From positions 2,313 to 66,312 of the forward strand of contig CAMDRF010000002.1 of the NCBI GenBank assembly GCA_945906765.1: a DNA stretch of 64,000 nucleotides. Reading direction: 5' to 3'. The position numbers were made by a program, and so were the translations under genes. Below the pieces are notes generated by a model, which worked only from the letters and a program-made list of their open reading frames with translations, ran no database searches and was not told the origin of the DNA. Source of the DNA: Nitrosovibrio sp. Nv4 (GTDB taxonomy: Bacteria > Pseudomonadota > Gammaproteobacteria > Burkholderiales > SG8-39). Of the stretch, positions 59,500-63,930 are shown one piece after another. Numbering within the stretch: the stretch's first letter is position 1; every line of letters begins with the position of its first letter.

Positions 59500-60318
59500 T
59501 TGCAGGATCTGCTCAACAATCCGGCGGTGCAATCCAGCGTGGCGCCTTTTCTCGCCGGCTTGCTGGTCGCCGGCTTGCTGTTCCCTTTGCGGCTCGGGGG
59601 ATTGGCGGCCGCGGCCGGATTCTTCACCACGGTCTACCTGGTCGGCGATTTCACGCTGGAATCCCTGGACTCGAAGCGCAGGCTGGTGCTGGTGGCGATG
59701 GCGGCGCCGGTGTTCGGCGTGATCGCCGACCTGGCGTTCAAGCCGACGCGCGCCAGCGGGCCGGTGCTCGGCGCGGTGTTCGCGGCGGCGGGCGGATGGG
59801 TGTTCCTGAACCTGCTGAAGCAGAAGTCGGGGGTTGATCTCGCGCTGCATGGCGCCGGATTTGCGGCGTTCGTGATCTGGACGGTCTCCTTCAGCGTTGC
59901 GCTGCACGCCGATACGCTGCGCGCGGGCGCCGCCGGCCTGGGCCTTGGCCTGGGCGCCGGTGTGGGCGCGGTACTCGGGGCCTCCGCGCTGCTCGGTCAG
60001 TATGGCATGGGCCTGGGCGCGGGTTGCGGCGCGTTCCTGCTGCTCAACATGATCTTCGGTCCGCGCATTGTGCCGGGCACGACCCTCACGCTTACTGCAG
60101 GCGTGGCTGCGAGCCTGGTCGCGGTAGGCGCGGTGCTGACCGGGCAGATGCCCTGGTATGCGCTGCTGGCGCTGGCGCTGGTCCCGGTGCTGGTGCGGCT
60201 GCCGCTGCCGAAGGACGCACCGTGGATGCAGGCCATCGTCGCCGCGCTATACGCCGCGTCCGCCGCGGTGGCCGCGTGGGTGCTAGCATGGCTGGCAAGC
60301 CGTGGTTCGCCCGGCTGA
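59500..60318 (+). CDS. Gly/Ala-rich polytopic membrane protein, unknown function
   Basis: 272-aa ORF (TTG start 4 nt after the relA stop) with about 8 hydrophobic segments. Confidence 0.5.
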   Translation: MQDLLNNPAVQSSVAPFLAGLLVAGLLFPLRLGGLAAAAGFFTTVYLVGDFTLESLDSKRRLVLVAMAAPVFGVIADLAFKPTRASGPVLGAVFAAAGGWVFLNLLKQKSGVDLALHGAGFAAFVIWTVSFSVALHADTLRAGAAGLGLGLGAGVGAVLGASALLGQYGMGLGAGCGAFLLLNMIFGPRIVPGTTLTLTAGVAASLVAVGAVLTGQMPWYALLALALVPVLVRLPLPKDAPWMQAIVAALYAASAAVAAWVLAWLASRGSPG

Positions 60319-60354
60319 ATTTTTTCCCGTAATCAAAACACCAGAGAGGAATAC

Positions 60355-60942
60355 ATGAAGACGAAGTTAATAGGCGCGCTTGCGATTGCCCTGCCGCTGG
60401 CGGCAATGGCGGCGCCGGAGAACTACACCATCGACCCGACTCACAGCTACGCCTATTTCGAGGTCGATCACCTCGGCGTGTCGAACCAGCGCGGGCGCTT
60501 CGATCGCACCAGCGGCAAGTTCGTCCTTGACCGCGTGGCCAAGTCGGGCAGCGTCGAGCTGAACATCGAAAGCGCATCGGTGTCCACCGGCGACAACCTC
60601 AAGGGCAGCCGGCCGCGCACGCTCGACGACCACCTGAAGACGGCGGACTTCTTCAACGTCGCCGAATTCCCCCGCATGGCCTTCAAGTCCACCGGCGTCA
60701 AGTTCTCCGGCGACAATCCCGCCGAGATCGTCGGCAATCTCACGTTGCTCGGCGTCGCCAAGCCGGTCACGATGAAGGTCGAACGCTGGGTCTGCAAGGA
60801 CAACCCGATGAACAAGAAGCCGATGTGCGGCGGCAATGCCTCGGCCAGCCTCAAGCGCACCGATTTCGGCATGAAGTACGCCGTGCCGGCGATCGGCGAC
60901 GAGATCCGGCTCTGGTTCTCGGTAGAGGGTTACAAGGACTAG
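60355..60942 (+). CDS. yceI: YceI-family periplasmic polyisoprenoid-binding protein
   Basis: 195 aa with a signal peptide. YTIDPTHSYAYFEVDHLGVSNQRGRF is the YceI signature. Confidence 0.88.
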   Translation: MKTKLIGALAIALPLAAMAAPENYTIDPTHSYAYFEVDHLGVSNQRGRFDRTSGKFVLDRVAKSGSVELNIESASVSTGDNLKGSRPRTLDDHLKTADFFNVAEFPRMAFKSTGVKFSGDNPAEIVGNLTLLGVAKPVTMKVERWVCKDNPMNKKPMCGGNASASLKRTDFGMKYAVPAIGDEIRLWFSVEGYKD

Positions 60943-60973
60943 CGCTCCATGACGGACTAGAAGCGGGGGAATG

Positions 60974-61010
60974 GAAGCGGGAAAATCCCTGTAAAATCCG
61001 CTTCTTTTTT
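60974..61010 (+). terminator. rho-independent terminator after yceI
   Basis: GAAGCGG ...17-nt loop... CCGCTTC followed by TTTTTT. It ends 2 nt before the tRNA. Confidence 0.6.
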
Positions 61011-61012
61011 GC

Positions 61013-61089
61013 AGGCGCGTAGCTCAGCTGGTTAGAGCACCACCTTGACATGGTGGGGGTCGTTGGTTCGAGTCCAATCGCGCCTACCA
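61013..61089 (+). tRNA. tRNA-Val (anticodon GAC)
   Basis: Hand-folded cloverleaf. Acceptor AGGCGCG/CGCGCCT, D arm GCTC-AGCTGGTTA-GAGC, anticodon arm CCACC-TTGACAT-GGTGG, T arm GTTGG-TTCGAGT-CCAAT, and an encoded ACCA. Confidence 0.9.
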
Positions 61090-61180
61090 ATTTCCTCAAG
61101 CAGTTACGTCGATGCGACTCGCGTCAAGCACGGTGCGGAATCGCATCGGCTGATGCCGCTGGCGAAATATTGAACCTCGT

Positions 61181-61504
61181 TCAGGCCCGGACTTCTTCGA
61201 TCGGCTTTACCGGGACGATCCGCGCGACGCGTTTCATGACCTTGTGGTTTTTCTCAGCCTTCTTGAGGTCGTAGGCTGCCTGCAACCGCATCCATACTTC
61301 CGGCGAGCCGCCAAACAGACGGGACACCTTCAGGCACATGACGGCGGACAGTGGCTTGCGCTTCGCCAGAATGTCGTGAAGCATCTGGCGGGACACGCCC
61401 AGCGCTTTCGCCGCGGCCGTCACGGACAGGCCGGCGGAGGGCAGGATGTCTTCCTTGATAATCTCGCCCGGATGGACGGGCGGCAGTCCGTTCTTGCTCT
61501 TCAT
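61181..61504 (-). CDS. higA: HigA-family antitoxin (XRE-type HTH)
   Basis: ATG 61504 (SD GAGGAGG), 107 aa. PVHPGEIIKEDILPSAGLSVTAAAKALGVSRQMLHDIL. Confidence 0.88.
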   Translation of the reverse strand: MKSKNGLPPVHPGEIIKEDILPSAGLSVTAAAKALGVSRQMLHDILAKRKPLSAVMCLKVSRLFGGSPEVWMRLQAAYDLKKAEKNHKVMKRVARIVPVKPIEEVRA

Positions 61505-61514
61505 AACTTCCTCC

Positions 61515-61790
61515 TCAATGGTAGTCTTCAAAATCGACATGCAGGGCGTTTTCGCCTGACCAGCCGAAAGTGATCCGGTAATTTCCGGTCACGCGCATTG
61601 ACCAGCGTTTTGGGTTGCCTTGCAAGCCATGGAAGCGAAAACCCGCGATGTTCATGTCCTCTGGACGCCCCGCTACTTCCAGCAATTGCAGGATACGCAT
61701 GCACTTCCTGATATGCCCGGCACCGATCCGGCGTGTCTTGCCGGTGAGGTAAAGCTCTTCAAGCCCTTTATGTCTGAAGCCAACGATCAT
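61515..61790 (-). CDS. higB: HigB toxin (RelE superfamily, plasmid maintenance system killer family)
   Basis: 91 aa. FRHKGLEELYLTGKTRRI....RFHGLQGNPKRWSMRVTGNYRITF. It precedes higA, the characteristic toxin-first order. Confidence 0.88.
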   Translation of the reverse strand: MIVGFRHKGLEELYLTGKTRRIGAGHIRKCMRILQLLEVAGRPEDMNIAGFRFHGLQGNPKRWSMRVTGNYRITFGWSGENALHVDFEDYH

Positions 61791-61820
61791 TCTTCACTGT
61801 AAATGCTTAAGTTGCCGTCT

Positions 61821-61838
61821 GTCAACTAAATAGTTGAC
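61821..61838. promoter_or_regulatory. palindromic putative HigA operator overlapping a -35-like TTGACA of the higBA promoter
   Basis: GTCAACTA-AA-TAGTTGAC lies 31 nt upstream of the higB start. In the minus-strand reading the half-site contains TTGACA. Confidence 0.5.
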
Positions 61839-61957
61839 TTTTTTGAGAACGCGGAATGGCGGTCGCACAGCCGATCCCGGCGGGCACGCGCCAGGTGGGC
61901 GCAGATCGGCCTGGAGTAAAATATTGATTCGGAACGACCACTTTGCCAGTTGCGAGA

Positions 61958-62003
61958 TTGACATGGTAAGGGTCGTTGGTTCGAGTCCAATCGCGCCTAC
62001 CAA
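61958..62003 (+). repeat. 46-nt copy of the 3' half of tRNA-Val (att-type direct repeat)
   Basis: TTGACATGGTAAGGGTCGTTGGTTCGAGTCCAATCGCGCCTACCAA compared with tRNA positions 61045-61090. It is identical except GG to AA at two adjacent positions. Confidence 0.9.
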
Positions 62004-62007
62004 CTTC

Positions 62008-63930
62008 TTGATAAACATAAAACTGCCCGACGGCGCGGTGAAGGGCTTTCCAGGCCCGGTCACCGTCGCCGAAGTAGCCCAATCCATCGGCGCGGGCCTC
62101 GCGCGCGCCGCGCTCGCCGGCAAGGTGAACGGCAGGCTCGTTGACACGAGCTACCGCATCGAGGCCGACGCGGAGCTCTCGATCGTCACGGGGAAGACCC
62201 CGGAAGGCGTGGAGATCTTGCGCCATTCCGCCGCGCACCTGCTTGCGCACGCGGTGAAGCAATTGTTCCCGGAAGCCCAGGTCACCATCGGGCCGGTGAT
62301 CGAGAACGGCTTCTTCTACGACTTCGCCTACAAGCGCCCTTTCACACCCGAGGACCTCGTTGCCATCGAGAAAAAGATGACCGAACTGGCGAAGAGGGAT
62401 TTTGCTGTTACCAGAAAAATTCTTCCCAGAAATGACGCGGTGAAATTCTTCCGCGAGCAGGGCGAGATCTACAAAGCCGAAATCATCCAGTTGATTCCGG
62501 AAGATCAGGAGATTTCGCTCTACAGCCAGGACGATTTCATCGACCTGTGCCGCGGGCCGCACGTGCCCTCGACGGGCAAGCTGAAGGTCTTCAAGCTGAT
62601 GCGCGTCGCCGGCGCCTACTGGCGCGGCGATTCGAAGAACGAAATGCTGCAGCGTATTTACGGCACCGCCTGGGGCAGGAAGGAAGACCAGGACGCCTAC
62701 CTGACGATGCTGGAGGAGGCGGACAAGCGCGACCACCGGCGCCTCGGCAAGAGCCTGGACCTGTTCCACATGGAGGAAACGGCGCCGGGCCTCGTGTTCT
62801 GGCATTCCAAGGGCTGGGTGCTCTGGCAGCAGGTCGAGCAGTACCTGCGCCGCGTCTACCGCGACAACGGTTACGCCGAAGTGCGCTGCCCGCAGATCCT
62901 CGACAAGAGCCTGTGGGAGCGCACCGGCCACTGGCAGAACTACCGCGAGAACATGTTCACCACGGAGTCGGAGAAGCGCGACTACGCGGTGAAGCCGATG
63001 AACTGCCCGGGCCACATCCTCGTCTTCAAGCAGGGCATCAAGAGCTACCGCGATCTGCCGTACCGGCTGGGCGAGTTCGGCGCCTGCCACCGCAACGAGC
63101 CCTCGGGCGCACTCCATGGCCTGATGCGGGTGCGCGGCTTCACCCAGGACGACGGCCATATCTTCTGTACCGAGGCGCAGATCCTGGACGAATGCGTCGT
63201 CTACACGGCGCTGCTGCAGAAGGTCTACCGCGACTTCGGCTTCAGCGAGATCGTCTACAAGGTGGCGACCCGGCCGGAGAAGCGCATCGGCTCGGATCAG
63301 GTCTGGGACAAGGCGGAAGCCGCGCTCATCGAGGCGCTCAAGCGCTCCGGGGTGGAGTACGTGATTTCGCCGGGCGAGGGCGCTTTTTACGGGCCGAAGA
63401 TCGAGTATTCGCTCAAGGACGCGATTGGCCGTCTCTGGCAGTGCGGCACCATGCAGGTAGACTTCAGCATGCCGGGGCTGCTGGGCGCGGAGTACGTGGG
63501 CGAGGACAACGCCCGCCATACCCCGGTGATGCTGCACCGGGCGATCGTCGGCTCCATGGAGCGGTTCCTCGGCATCCTCATCGAGAATTTCGGCGGCGCC
63601 TTCCCGGTCTGGCTGGCGCCGGAGCAGGCGGTGGTCATAAATGTGTCGGAGGCCCAGGCGGAGTACGCCGAAAGTGTTGCTTTTAAGCTGCGGCAGGCCG
63701 GTTTCCGGGTCAGCGCGGATTTGCGAAACGAGAAAATTTCCTATAAAATTCGGGAACATAGCTTGCAGAAGCTGCCCTACCAGTTGGTGGTCGGGGACAA
63801 GGAAAAGCAGGCAGGAAGCGTGGCTGTGCGCACGCGCGGCGGTGAAGACTTGGGGGCCGTGGCTCTTGAGACTTTCATCGAGCGCCTCGGCAACGAGGCG
63901 CGCGCGGTGCGGCACGGCCGCTTTTTTTGA
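62008..63930 (+). CDS. thrS: threonine--tRNA ligase
   Basis: ORF 61834..63930 trimmed to TTG 62008 ((M)[13 protein letters not shown].., compare E. coli MPVITLPDGS), 640 aa. Class II motifs are present, including [13 protein letters not shown] and GAFYGPKIE. Confidence 0.92.

What the first reader, a model, noticed from the sequence alone, without database searches (positions are those of the whole stretch)
61013..62003. higBA micro-island flanked by tRNA-Val and a 46-nt copy of its 3' half
The 3' 46 nt of tRNA-Val(GAC) recur at 61958-62003 with two adjacent mismatches. This is the classic attL/attR signature of integrase-mediated insertion into a tRNA 3' end. The 868 bp between the repeats holds only higB-higA and their promoter. 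No integrase is present. The likely history is that a larger island integrated between tRNA-Val and thrS and was then deleted down to its addiction module. That would be consistent with TA-mediated stabilisation of the last remnant. The displaced tRNA fragment now sits 4 nt before the thrS start.
Basis: partly seen in the sequence, partly recalled or inferred. Interest (0 to 1): 0.6.

Follow-up and report, generated by a model that had tools for sequence, protein, structure and literature searches.

The report
Toxin-antitoxin islet in tRNA-Val site
An 868-bp piece of foreign DNA carrying only a higB-higA toxin-antitoxin pair sits between a valine tRNA gene and a displaced copy of that gene's 3' half, just before thrS; it is a stripped-down integrated element of a familiar kind, at a site where close relatives are either empty or hold other toxin-antitoxin pairs.

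Summary
tRNA-Val(GAC) lies at 61013-61089. Its 3' part, starting exactly at the anticodon loop, recurs at 61958-62007 (47/50 identical; none expected by chance). Between the copies lie only an intact higB-higA operon and its promoter/operator.

Related genomes support insertion at an att site. Four relatives have the tRNA directly abutting thrS. In L098 the junction CCTACCAACTTCTTGATAAACAT matches the window's partial-copy/thrS junction exactly. The same ~45-nt tRNA segment occurs in at least 120 IMG/VR contigs, mostly as partial copies starting at tRNA positions 29-33. Tyrosine integrases of at least four families lie next to it, and one contig reads tRNA-Val, integrase, higB, higA.

No parent element for this islet was found, so "deleted down from a larger island" remains inference. 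A later, independent higBA insertion is a live rival. The higBA module is 87% identical in DNA to solitary copies in unrelated genomes.

New here: close relatives hold PIN/VapC-like, MNT-HepT and DUF6932 pairs at the same site, one as a mosaic of scars. That fits toxin-antitoxin modules persisting or accumulating there.

Verdict: a new member of a known kind (decayed integrative element, CIME-like, with a TA module). Moderate interest.

The parts
61013..61089 (+). Complete tRNA-Val(GAC) gene. Its 3' part (from 61045) is the attL copy of the repeat. The anticodon stem is CCACC/GGTGG, whereas the closest relatives have CTACC/GGTAG.
   Evidence: ARAGORN; Rfam tRNA, 67.6 bits; comparison with relatives.
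61045..61094 (+). attL copy of the direct repeat: anticodon loop to the CCA end, plus 5 nt.
   Evidence: the repeat finder family D1; the core occurs exactly twice in the window with 0 expected.
61095..61180 (.). Left arm of the islet (the P'-like arm). Non-coding orphan sequence with no homologue found anywhere and no integrase remnant.
   Evidence: blastn and blastx against all fetched loci, plasmids, phages and viral contigs were negative.
61181..61504 (-). higA antitoxin (107 aa, HTH-XRE type). Its ATG lies 10 nt after the higB stop and is preceded by GGAGGAAG.
   Evidence: TIGR02607 antidote_HigA equivalog, E=1.7e-26; Pfam HTH_3. Gene callers on population contigs also aa.
61515..61790 (-). 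higB toxin (91 aa, RelE-fold ribosome-dependent endoribonuclease family). It is full length and keeps the family-invariant H54 and the C-terminal D89-Y90-H91.
   Evidence: PF05015 positions 3-91 of 91; PDB HigB 4mct_B, E=1e-10; invariant columns in alignment A2.
61796..61838 (-). higBA promoter-like site (TTGACA, 18-nt spacer, TACAGT). The 18-nt palindrome GTCAACTAAATAGTTGAC overlaps the -35 box and is the likely HigA operator.
   Evidence: Promoter scan. The -35 to -10 region is conserved in higBA copies from other genomes, and the palindrome is shared with L100.
61839..61957 (.). Right arm of the islet (the P-like arm). Non-coding orphan sequence. It must contain, or pass on, whatever transcription drives thrS.
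   Evidence: No homologue found. Only weak promoter candidates on the + strand.
61958..62007 (+). attR copy: the displaced 3' part of tRNA-Val (anticodon loop to CCA at 62002) plus the native 5-nt spacer ACTTC.
   Evidence: the repeat finder family D1. The junction with thrS is identical to the empty site in L098.
62008..63930 (+). thrS (threonyl-tRNA synthetase, 640 aa from the TTG start), the native right-hand neighbour of tRNA-Val.
   Evidence: Pfam TGS, tRNA_SAD, tRNA-synt_2b and HGTP_anticodon domains. N-termini of relatives that start with ATG align at this position.

Best explanation
A site-specific (tyrosine) integrase once inserted a circular element into the 3' part of tRNA-Val(GAC). 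In this Burkholderiales clade that tRNA lies 5 nt upstream of the thrS start codon. Recombination in or near the anticodon loop rebuilt a complete tRNA at the left end (attL). It displaced the original 3' half, still joined to thrS, to the right end (attR). The element no longer has an integrase. What remains is 868 bp: two short orphan arms and an intact, self-promoted higB-higA operon. This is a decayed, CIME-like islet. The simplest route is one internal deletion that removed the integrase and cargo but spared higBA at the attR-proximal end. Cells that delete higBA should lose the labile HigA antitoxin and be poisoned by the HigB mRNA endonuclease, so deletions that include the module are counter-selected. 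Shown: the duplication, the empty sites, the foreign flank, the intact higBA, and the use of the same att segment by integrase-bearing elements. Inferred: the larger ancestor, the deletion, and addiction as the reason higBA is what survived.
For: The repeat is real and starts at the anticodon loop. Precise empty sites exist in L098, L099, L003 and L104, and the attR/thrS junction is identical to L098. The islet is lower in GC (0.51-0.60) than its flanks (0.63-0.71). The tRNA-Val to thrS adjacency is widespread: 63 of 149 surveyed loci have the tRNA within 400 nt of thrS. Independent partial tRNA-Val copies before thrS occur in L001 (42 nt, 3.4-kb island) and L008 (26 nt, island larger than 10 kb). 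At least 120 IMG/VR contigs carry the exact 45-nt segment. Of 129 matches, 91 are partial copies, and 80 of those start at tRNA positions 29-33. Integrases of at least four families lie within 600 nt on the 3' side. L251 and L232 show tRNA-Val, a P4-like integrase, then higB and higA. higBA is intact: both family models are matched and a promoter and operator are present. The islet is identical or 99.9% identical in five contigs from four metagenome samples and one deposited genome assembly, so it is fixed in this population. Sister lineages hold other TA or TA-like pairs at the same site: PIN (L097), MNT/HepT with scars (L303) and DUF6932 (L094/L096).
Against: No parent element was found. The arms have no homologue in plasmids, phages, IMG/VR, JGI metagenomes (one exact junction pattern tested) or any fetched locus. 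No integrase pseudogene fragment is detectable. Close relatives of this higBA (82-88% protein identity, 87% DNA identity) are solitary two-gene inserts between housekeeping genes, without att repeats or integrases. The module can therefore move without such an element. L097 carries a TA-like pair at this site with no tRNA repeat. Many chromosomal TA pairs do not stabilise DNA when tested (review PMC2654758).
Confidence: 0.6

Rival explanations
1. There were two events. An integrative element entered tRNA-Val and decayed to an att-flanked scar. The roughly 660-bp higBA module (promoter to higA stop) was inserted into that scar later, by whatever integrase-independent route spreads solitary TA cassettes. 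higBA would then never have been cargo of the att-forming element.
For: DNA similarity to other higBA copies runs only from the promoter to the higA stop. blastn gives window 61181-61813 at 87% identity to L086-L093, and the alignment extends it to the -35 box, plus the palindrome in L100. It stops sharply at both ends. Those copies are solitary inserts in unrelated contexts. In L303 an MNT/HepT pair is nested inside fragments of another cassette at this same site, and L097 has a PIN pair with no att repeat.
Against: This needs an extra event in an 868-bp stretch. TA modules are common cargo of integrative elements, and L251 shows integrase plus higBA next to this very tRNA. No higBA-free version of the scar was found.
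Confidence: 0.3
2. The 868-bp unit is itself a minimal non-autonomous mobile cassette. Its two att sites are intact, so an integrase encoded elsewhere (a resident or incoming tRNA-Val-specific prophage or island) could excise and reinsert it, as for a CIME or an integron-like cassette. The alternative TA pairs in sister lineages would then reflect cassette exchange.
For: Both att copies are nearly perfect, with 33 identical nt covering the T arm and acceptor end. Many integrases target this segment. At least four different two-gene units occupy the site in close relatives.
Against: The same unit with its arms was not found at any other location or in circular-junction form. The other occupants lack comparable repeats: L097 has none, L303 none, and L094 only about 16 of 18 nt, judged by eye. 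No integrase was detected in the 64-kb window. The mosaic in L303 looks like illegitimate insertion and deletion, not clean cassette exchange.
Confidence: 0.08
3. The duplication is not integrase-made. It would be a long target-site or repair duplication created when higBA was inserted by illegitimate recombination.
For: No integrase is present, and TA cassettes at this site can insert without att repeats (L097).
Against: The duplicated block begins exactly at the anticodon loop and runs to the tRNA end, the same block duplicated around integrase-bearing elements (80 of 91 partial copies start at positions 29-33). A 46-50-nt target duplication is not typical of any known transposition or repair route (own knowledge). 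The copies differ in a way that fits attP/attB heterology.
Confidence: 0.02

Closest known systems
CIME (cis-mobilizable element), a decayed integrative element that keeps attL and attR
   Same: [quoted passage not shown] This is the definition quoted in PMC5704250.
   Different: CIMEs were defined for decayed ICEs and IMEs of Firmicutes and are usually several kb long. Here the ancestor is unknown and could be a prophage, judging from IMG/VR users of the site. The remnant is only 868 bp with a single operon. Mobilisation by accretion was not tested.
HigBA type II toxin-antitoxin system (Proteus vulgaris Rts1 HigBA; PDB 4mct)
   Same: The toxin gene comes first, HigB has a RelE fold, HigA is an HTH-XRE antitoxin, and there is an own promoter with a palindromic operator.
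   Different: It is chromosomal and sits in a tRNA att scar rather than on a plasmid. Only a distant sequence relative of the P. vulgaris protein (phmmer E=1e-10). Activity was not tested.
tRNA-targeting prophages and genomic islands with anticodon-loop-type att sites
   Same: The duplicated block runs from the anticodon loop to the 3' end of the tRNA. Integration regenerates the tRNA. The same tRNA-Val(GAC) block is used by at least four integrase families in IMG/VR contigs.
   Different: There is no integrase and no phage or conjugation genes, and no sequence similarity to any of those elements outside the tRNA block.
TA-stabilised mobile DNA (TA cassettes in Vibrio superintegrons; TA modules on ICEs and islands)
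   Same: A TA module is embedded in horizontally acquired DNA, where loss of the DNA would trigger post-segregational killing (review PMC2654758).
   Different: Here the TA module is essentially the only content, so it stabilises nothing but itself. There are no attC sites and no integron integrase.

Membership tests
HigBA type II toxin-antitoxin | The toxin belongs to the HigB/RelE-like family. | tested here: met
   PF05015, 52.8 bits against a cutoff of 27, covering positions 3-91 of 91. It matches PDB HigB chains.
HigBA type II toxin-antitoxin | The antitoxin belongs to the HigA HTH family. | tested here: met
   TIGR02607 equivalog, 91.9 bits against a cutoff of 47.7.
HigBA type II toxin-antitoxin | The gene order is reversed (toxin upstream of antitoxin) within one operon. 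| tested here: met
   On the minus strand, higB (61790 to 61515) is followed after 10 nt (GGAGGAAGTT) by higA (61504 to 61181).
HigBA type II toxin-antitoxin | The toxin arrests growth and the antitoxin neutralises it; the promoter is autoregulated. | not testable with these tools
   Only sequence features are available: the promoter-like site, the overlapping palindrome and the conserved catalytic-site residues.
Integrase-mediated insertion into a tRNA gene (attL/attR) | A direct repeat made of the tRNA 3' segment bounds the insert, and the tRNA gene stays complete. | tested here: met
Integrase-mediated insertion into a tRNA gene (attL/attR) | Related genomes have an uninterrupted (empty) site with the same outer flanks. 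| tested here: met
   In L098, L099, L003 and L104 the tRNA is followed after 5 nt by the thrS TTG. L098 is identical to the window over CCTACCAACTTCTTGATAAACAT.
Integrase-mediated insertion into a tRNA gene (attL/attR) | The element encodes a tyrosine or serine recombinase. | tested here: not met
   Only higB and higA are encoded between the repeats. There is no integrase remnant in the arms and none in the window by tblastn with five representatives.
Integrase-mediated insertion into a tRNA gene (attL/attR) | Elements that do encode integrases use the same att segment. | tested here: met
   At least 120 IMG/VR contigs carry it. There are 91 partial copies, mostly from tRNA positions 29-33, with adjacent integrases confirmed by Pfam.
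CIME (cis-mobilizable element) | It retains attL and attR but lacks integration and transfer genes. | tested here: met
   The definition is from PMC5704250.
CIME (cis-mobilizable element) | It derives from an ICE or IME by decay, and can be excised or transferred when a related element integrates alongside it. | not testable with these tools
   No parent element was found. Mobilisation needs an experiment.

The most novel reading that the evidence does not exclude
In this Burkholderiales clade the 5-nt junction between tRNA-Val(GAC) and thrS may be a dedicated trap or exchange point for toxin-antitoxin cassettes. Different TA pairs (HigBA, PIN/VapC-like, MNT-HepT, DUF6932 pair) would be swapped in and out, partly through the tRNA-derived att site and trans-acting integrases. 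Their position directly upstream of an essential, promoter-less thrS operon would couple cassette retention to thrS expression.
Probability: 0.1. Interest if true: 0.65.

Novelty: new member of a known kind. Interest (0 to 1): 0.38.

Why it matters
This is a clean, minimal example of how an integrated element can decay until only its selfish stabilising module is left. Both recombination sites remain readable, and matching empty sites exist in relatives. The added comparative result is that four different TA or TA-like pairs, one of them a mosaic of scars, occupy the same few bases upstream of thrS in sister lineages. That offers a natural data set for asking whether TA modules are preferentially retained, or preferentially inserted, at integration hotspots. 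It also exposes an annotation artefact. ThrS is extended by 15 codons read from the tRNA sequence. Finally, it shows an unusual gene arrangement, with a thrS TTG start 5 nt after a tRNA end, whose expression logic is unexplained.

Tried and rejected
1. Parent element search. The islet was searched against PLSDB plasmids in distant mode, which gave only weak (about 70%) higBA hits in Azospirillum. INPHARED phages gave nothing. Exact attR-junction and attL-junction patterns gave nothing in IMG/VR, and the attR junction gave nothing in JGI metagenomes. HigB, as a single sequence and as a profile, found only 42-55% relatives in IMG/VR.

2. Arm homology. The arms were compared with the 200-nt flanks of all viral att copies and with all fetched loci. 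Nothing matched beyond the operator palindrome.

3. Integrase remnants. blastx of the arms against integrase candidates gave only noise. The tblastn hit of the L183 integrase C-terminus to 61035-61091 and 61954-62001 is not a remnant. That ORF simply reads antisense through the tRNA block.

4. Integrase-bearing island at this site among thrS loci. None was identified. L008 has a 26-nt partial copy, but its island exceeds the 10 kb available. L001's 3.4-kb island carries thioredoxin-like, hydrolase-like and SDR genes and no integrase.

5. Deciding the crossover point from the mismatches. This was not resolvable. The partial copy (GGTAA) is one change from the relatives' native GGTAG and two changes from the window's GGTGG. 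One possibility is a crossover in the anticodon loop followed by a compensatory T-to-C change in the 5' stem strand. The other is a more 3' crossover with the mismatches coming from the element.

6. A promoter for thrS inside the islet. No convincing sigma-70 match was found.

7. An integron-cassette reading was rejected: there is no attC-like site and no integron integrase.

Full report
**1. The observation**

ARAGORN finds a single tRNA in the window, tRNA-Val(GAC), at 61013-61089. Rfam confirms it at 67.6 bits. The repeat finder reports one long direct repeat in 60000-63000, 61045-61094 against 61958-62007, with 47 of 50 positions identical.

- Two of the mismatches are adjacent, in the 3' strand of the anticodon stem. 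They are 61055-61056 (GG) against 61968-61969 (AA).
- The third mismatch (61091 against 62004) lies beyond the CCA end.
- The 33-nt core occurs exactly twice in the window. None of 100 shuffles gave a match.
- The repeat begins at the first base of the anticodon loop, TTGACAT.

**2. What lies between the copies**

The 868 bp between the copies hold two genes on the minus strand.

- higB (61515-61790, 91 aa) matches PF05015 over positions 3-91 of 91. It also matches PDB HigB chains at E=1e-10.
- higA (61181-61504, 107 aa) matches the TIGR02607 HigA equivalog at 91.9 bits against a cutoff of 47.7.
- The order is toxin first, with a 10-nt spacer GGAGGAAGTT between the genes.
- A TTGACA, 18-nt spacer, TACAGT promoter-like site lies at 61825 to 61796. 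It overlaps the 18-nt palindrome GTCAACTAAATAGTTGAC.
- HigB keeps the residues that are invariant in its close family, H54 and the C-terminal D-Y-H. In Proteus HigB these are catalytic-site residues; that point is my own knowledge.

**3. Where thrS starts**

thrS starts at TTG 62008, 5 nt after the CCA end of the partial copy at 62002. Relatives whose thrS has an ordinary upstream region start with ATG at the homologous codon, giving MPNIRLPDG and similar N-termini. Gene callers instead start at the in-frame ATG of the anticodon loop. This gives a 655-aa ThrS in this population and a 648-aa ThrS in relatives. The extra 15 residues are translated tRNA sequence and look like an artefact.

**4. 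Related genomes: empty sites**

I fetched thrS loci from three sources.

| Source |
|---|
| 80 species-representative genomes |
| 80 JGI metagenome contigs |
| Contigs encoding the closest ThrS proteins, 86-91% identical |

The organism is an uncultured member of the Burkholderiales. The best species representative has only 80% ThrS identity.

Placement of tRNA-Val(GAC) upstream of thrS is widespread. Among 149 loci with at least 500 nt of upstream sequence, 63 have the tRNA within 400 nt of thrS.

In the window's own sub-clade the tRNA abuts thrS. L098 (88% ThrS identity), L099, L003 and L104 all have the tRNA followed after 5 nt by the TTG start. L098 reads CCTACCAACTTCTTGATAAACAT, exactly the window's partial-copy/thrS junction.

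These are precise empty sites. The 3' flank of the partial copy is the native continuation. The sequence after the complete tRNA (ATTTCCTCAAGC...) is foreign.

The islet's GC content (0.51-0.60) is below that of its surroundings (0.63-0.71).

**5. Is the duplicated block a real att site?**

A scan of IMG/VR for the 45-nt block stopped at its 120-locus limit.

- Of 129 tRNA-Val matches in those loci, 91 are partial copies without the 5' half. Eighty of the 91 begin at tRNA positions 29-33. The window's copy begins at position 33.
- Several contigs carry a copy at each end, for example L239 (12 kb) and L257 (8.5 kb).
- ORFs within 600 nt on the 3' side fall into clusters. Pfam identifies them as tyrosine integrases with different arm-binding domains, and there is also a 318-aa integrase.
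- L251 and L232 read tRNA-Val, a P4-like integrase (406 aa), then higB and higA. That higBA is 39% and 36% identical to the window's.
- Among thrS loci, L001 has a 42-nt partial copy 14 nt before thrS, closing a 3.4-kb island. L008 has a 26-nt copy closing an island larger than 10 kb.

Integrase-mediated insertion at this block is therefore common. The att reading of the window's repeat is well supported.

**6. Was there a larger island?**

This could not be shown.

- The 91-nt left arm and 144-nt right arm have no homologue in plasmids, phages, IMG/VR, JGI metagenomes (exact junction pattern only) or any fetched locus.
- The arms contain no integrase remnant.
- The higBA module behaves as a unit of its own. 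Its DNA is 87% identical over window 61181-61813 to copies in L086-L093. Those sit alone between an amidohydrolase gene and a fucosidase gene in a quite different genome.
- Similarity to L086, L100 and L101 starts at the promoter (at the operator palindrome in L100) and stops at the higA stop codon.
- L101 and L102 carry the module alone between an amidase gene and an ABC-F gene.

Two histories remain open. higBA may have been cargo at the attR-proximal end of the integrated element, in which case one internal deletion gives today's structure. Alternatively, it entered an existing scar later. I rate these at roughly 0.6 and 0.3.

**7. Occupants of the same site in sister lineages**

| Locus | ThrS identity | Content between tRNA-Val and thrS |
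|---|---|---|
| L094/L096 | 91% / 90% | DUF6932 protein with a nucleotidyltransferase-like motif (by eye), plus a 68-aa ORF. Followed by a degenerate end-of-tRNA copy, about 16 of 18 nt by eye. |
| L097 | 89% | A small ORF plus a PIN-domain protein. The PIN stop overlaps the thrS ATG. No repeat. |
| L303 | 86% | That small ORF, a truncated PIN gene, fragments of the DUF6932 cassette, and an MNT/HepT pair nested between the fragments. |
| L095 | 90% | 6.3 kb of sensor-kinase and GGDEF-EAL genes. No repeat. |
| P0130 contig | 88% | Appears empty (gene coordinates only; no DNA was available). |

None of the species-representative loci L001-L080 has higBA.

The junction is therefore a hotspot where small TA or TA-like pairs recur and leave scars. 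It equally fits TA cassettes inserting there on their own. Calling the DUF6932 pair a TA system is tentative. It matches only a PADLOC candidate at E=6.5e-6 and an AbiEii toxin at a non-significant E=0.24.

**8. The two adjacent mismatches**

| Sequence | Anticodon stem |
|---|---|
| Closest relatives | CTACC / GGTAG |
| Window's complete tRNA | CCACC / GGTGG |
| Displaced copy | GGTAA |

The first difference (A in the copy and in relatives, G in the window's tRNA) is compensated in the 5' strand of the working tRNA. The second difference is private to the fragment.

There are two possible readings. In the first, the crossover was in the anticodon loop, the element supplied GGTGG, and the 5' strand later changed T to C. 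In the second, the crossover was further 3' and the fragment's 5' end derives from the element. The data do not decide between them.

**9. Population state**

The islet is identical or 99.9% identical in five contigs from four metagenome samples and one deposited genome assembly. It is fixed in this population. No empty allele of the same species was seen.

**10. Comparison with known systems, and verdict**

The structure meets the published definition of a CIME. [quoted passage not shown] Its only content is a standard HigBA type II module. TA modules are known to associate with islands and are argued to resist gene loss. Direct tests with chromosomal TAs have been mixed (PMC2654758).

This is a new member of a known kind. 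It is neat because it is so small and because both att copies and the empty sites are readable. Interest is moderate, at 0.38.

The most novel reading not excluded is that the junction is a dedicated TA-cassette exchange point coupled to expression of the promoter-less thrS. I give this about 0.1 probability.

**11. Unexplained**

How thrS is transcribed and translated is unexplained. In empty-site relatives there is no Shine-Dalgarno sequence and no room for a promoter between the tRNA and the TTG. In the window the working tRNA and its conserved TGTAAAAT box are 0.9 kb away. The operator palindrome plus a T-run (61821-61847) scores as terminator-like on the thrS strand. No good sigma-70 site lies in 61790-62010.

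Noticed in passing
window 61958-62010; L098 5191-5275; L099 9964-10048; L003 9913-9997: In this clade thrS begins with TTG only 5 nt after the CCA end of tRNA-Val(GAC). There is no Shine-Dalgarno sequence and no room for a promoter. A conserved TGTAAAAT box lies about 15 nt upstream of the tRNA. thrS therefore seems to be co-transcribed with the tRNA and released by tRNA processing, giving a near-leaderless mRNA with a TTG start. In the window only the 3' tRNA half precedes thrS, and no convincing promoter was found between higB and thrS.
   Followed up: partly
window 61963-62007; proteins P0121 (655 aa), P0132 and P0144 (648 aa): Gene callers extend ThrS by 15 codons, starting at the ATG inside the tRNA anticodon loop ([15 protein letters not shown]...). 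This looks like an annotation artefact. In database hits, a 648- or 655-aa ThrS length flags genomes where a tRNA-Val or its fragment abuts thrS.
   Followed up: partly
L303 2205-3402: The tRNA-Val/thrS site is a mosaic here. It holds a vapB-like ORF, a vapC (PIN) gene truncated to a few codons, two fragments of the DUF6932/68-aa cassette seen in L094, and an MNT (NTP_transf_2) / HepT pair nested between the fragments. These are layered TA insertions and deletions at one spot.
   Followed up: partly
L094 9267-10000 (also L096): The closest relative (ThrS 91%) holds a DUF6932 protein plus an overlapping 68-aa ORF at the site. The protein has a GSxxS...DxD nucleotidyltransferase-like motif (by eye) and a weak PADLOC PDC-M63A hit. 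The pair is followed by a degenerate copy of the tRNA end, about 16 of 18 nt. It may be an uncharacterised TA or defence pair.
   Followed up: partly
L251 45-2134 and L232 (IMG/VR contigs): These read tRNA-Val(GAC), then a P4-like integrase (Arm-DNA-bind_3, Phage_int_M, Phage_integrase), then higB and higA, then a DnaB-like helicase. This is an integrase-bearing element at the same tRNA with a distant higBA right next to the integrase.
   Followed up: yes
L183-L302 (IMG/VR contigs): The 45-nt 3' block of this tRNA-Val(GAC) is an extremely popular att site. More than 120 viral contigs carry it and at least four integrase families lie beside it. 91 of the 129 copies share the same downstream flank, AACAAAATCCGC, which suggests one dominant host or phage group. 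In one integrase family the ORF reads antisense through the tRNA block.
   Followed up: partly
L095 17429-21900: Downstream of the thrS-infC-rpmI-rplT-pheST-ihfA-merR cluster, tRNA-Pro(GGG) is followed by a mercury-resistance (MerR/MerT/HMA), integrase and Rep_trans island. This is a second tRNA-linked insertion site flanking the same conserved operon. The window ends before this position.
   Followed up: no
window 61821-61847: The likely HigA operator palindrome, followed by TTTTTT, scores as an intrinsic-terminator-like site on the plus (thrS) strand. It would tend to block read-through from the tRNA-Val promoter towards thrS.
   Followed up: no
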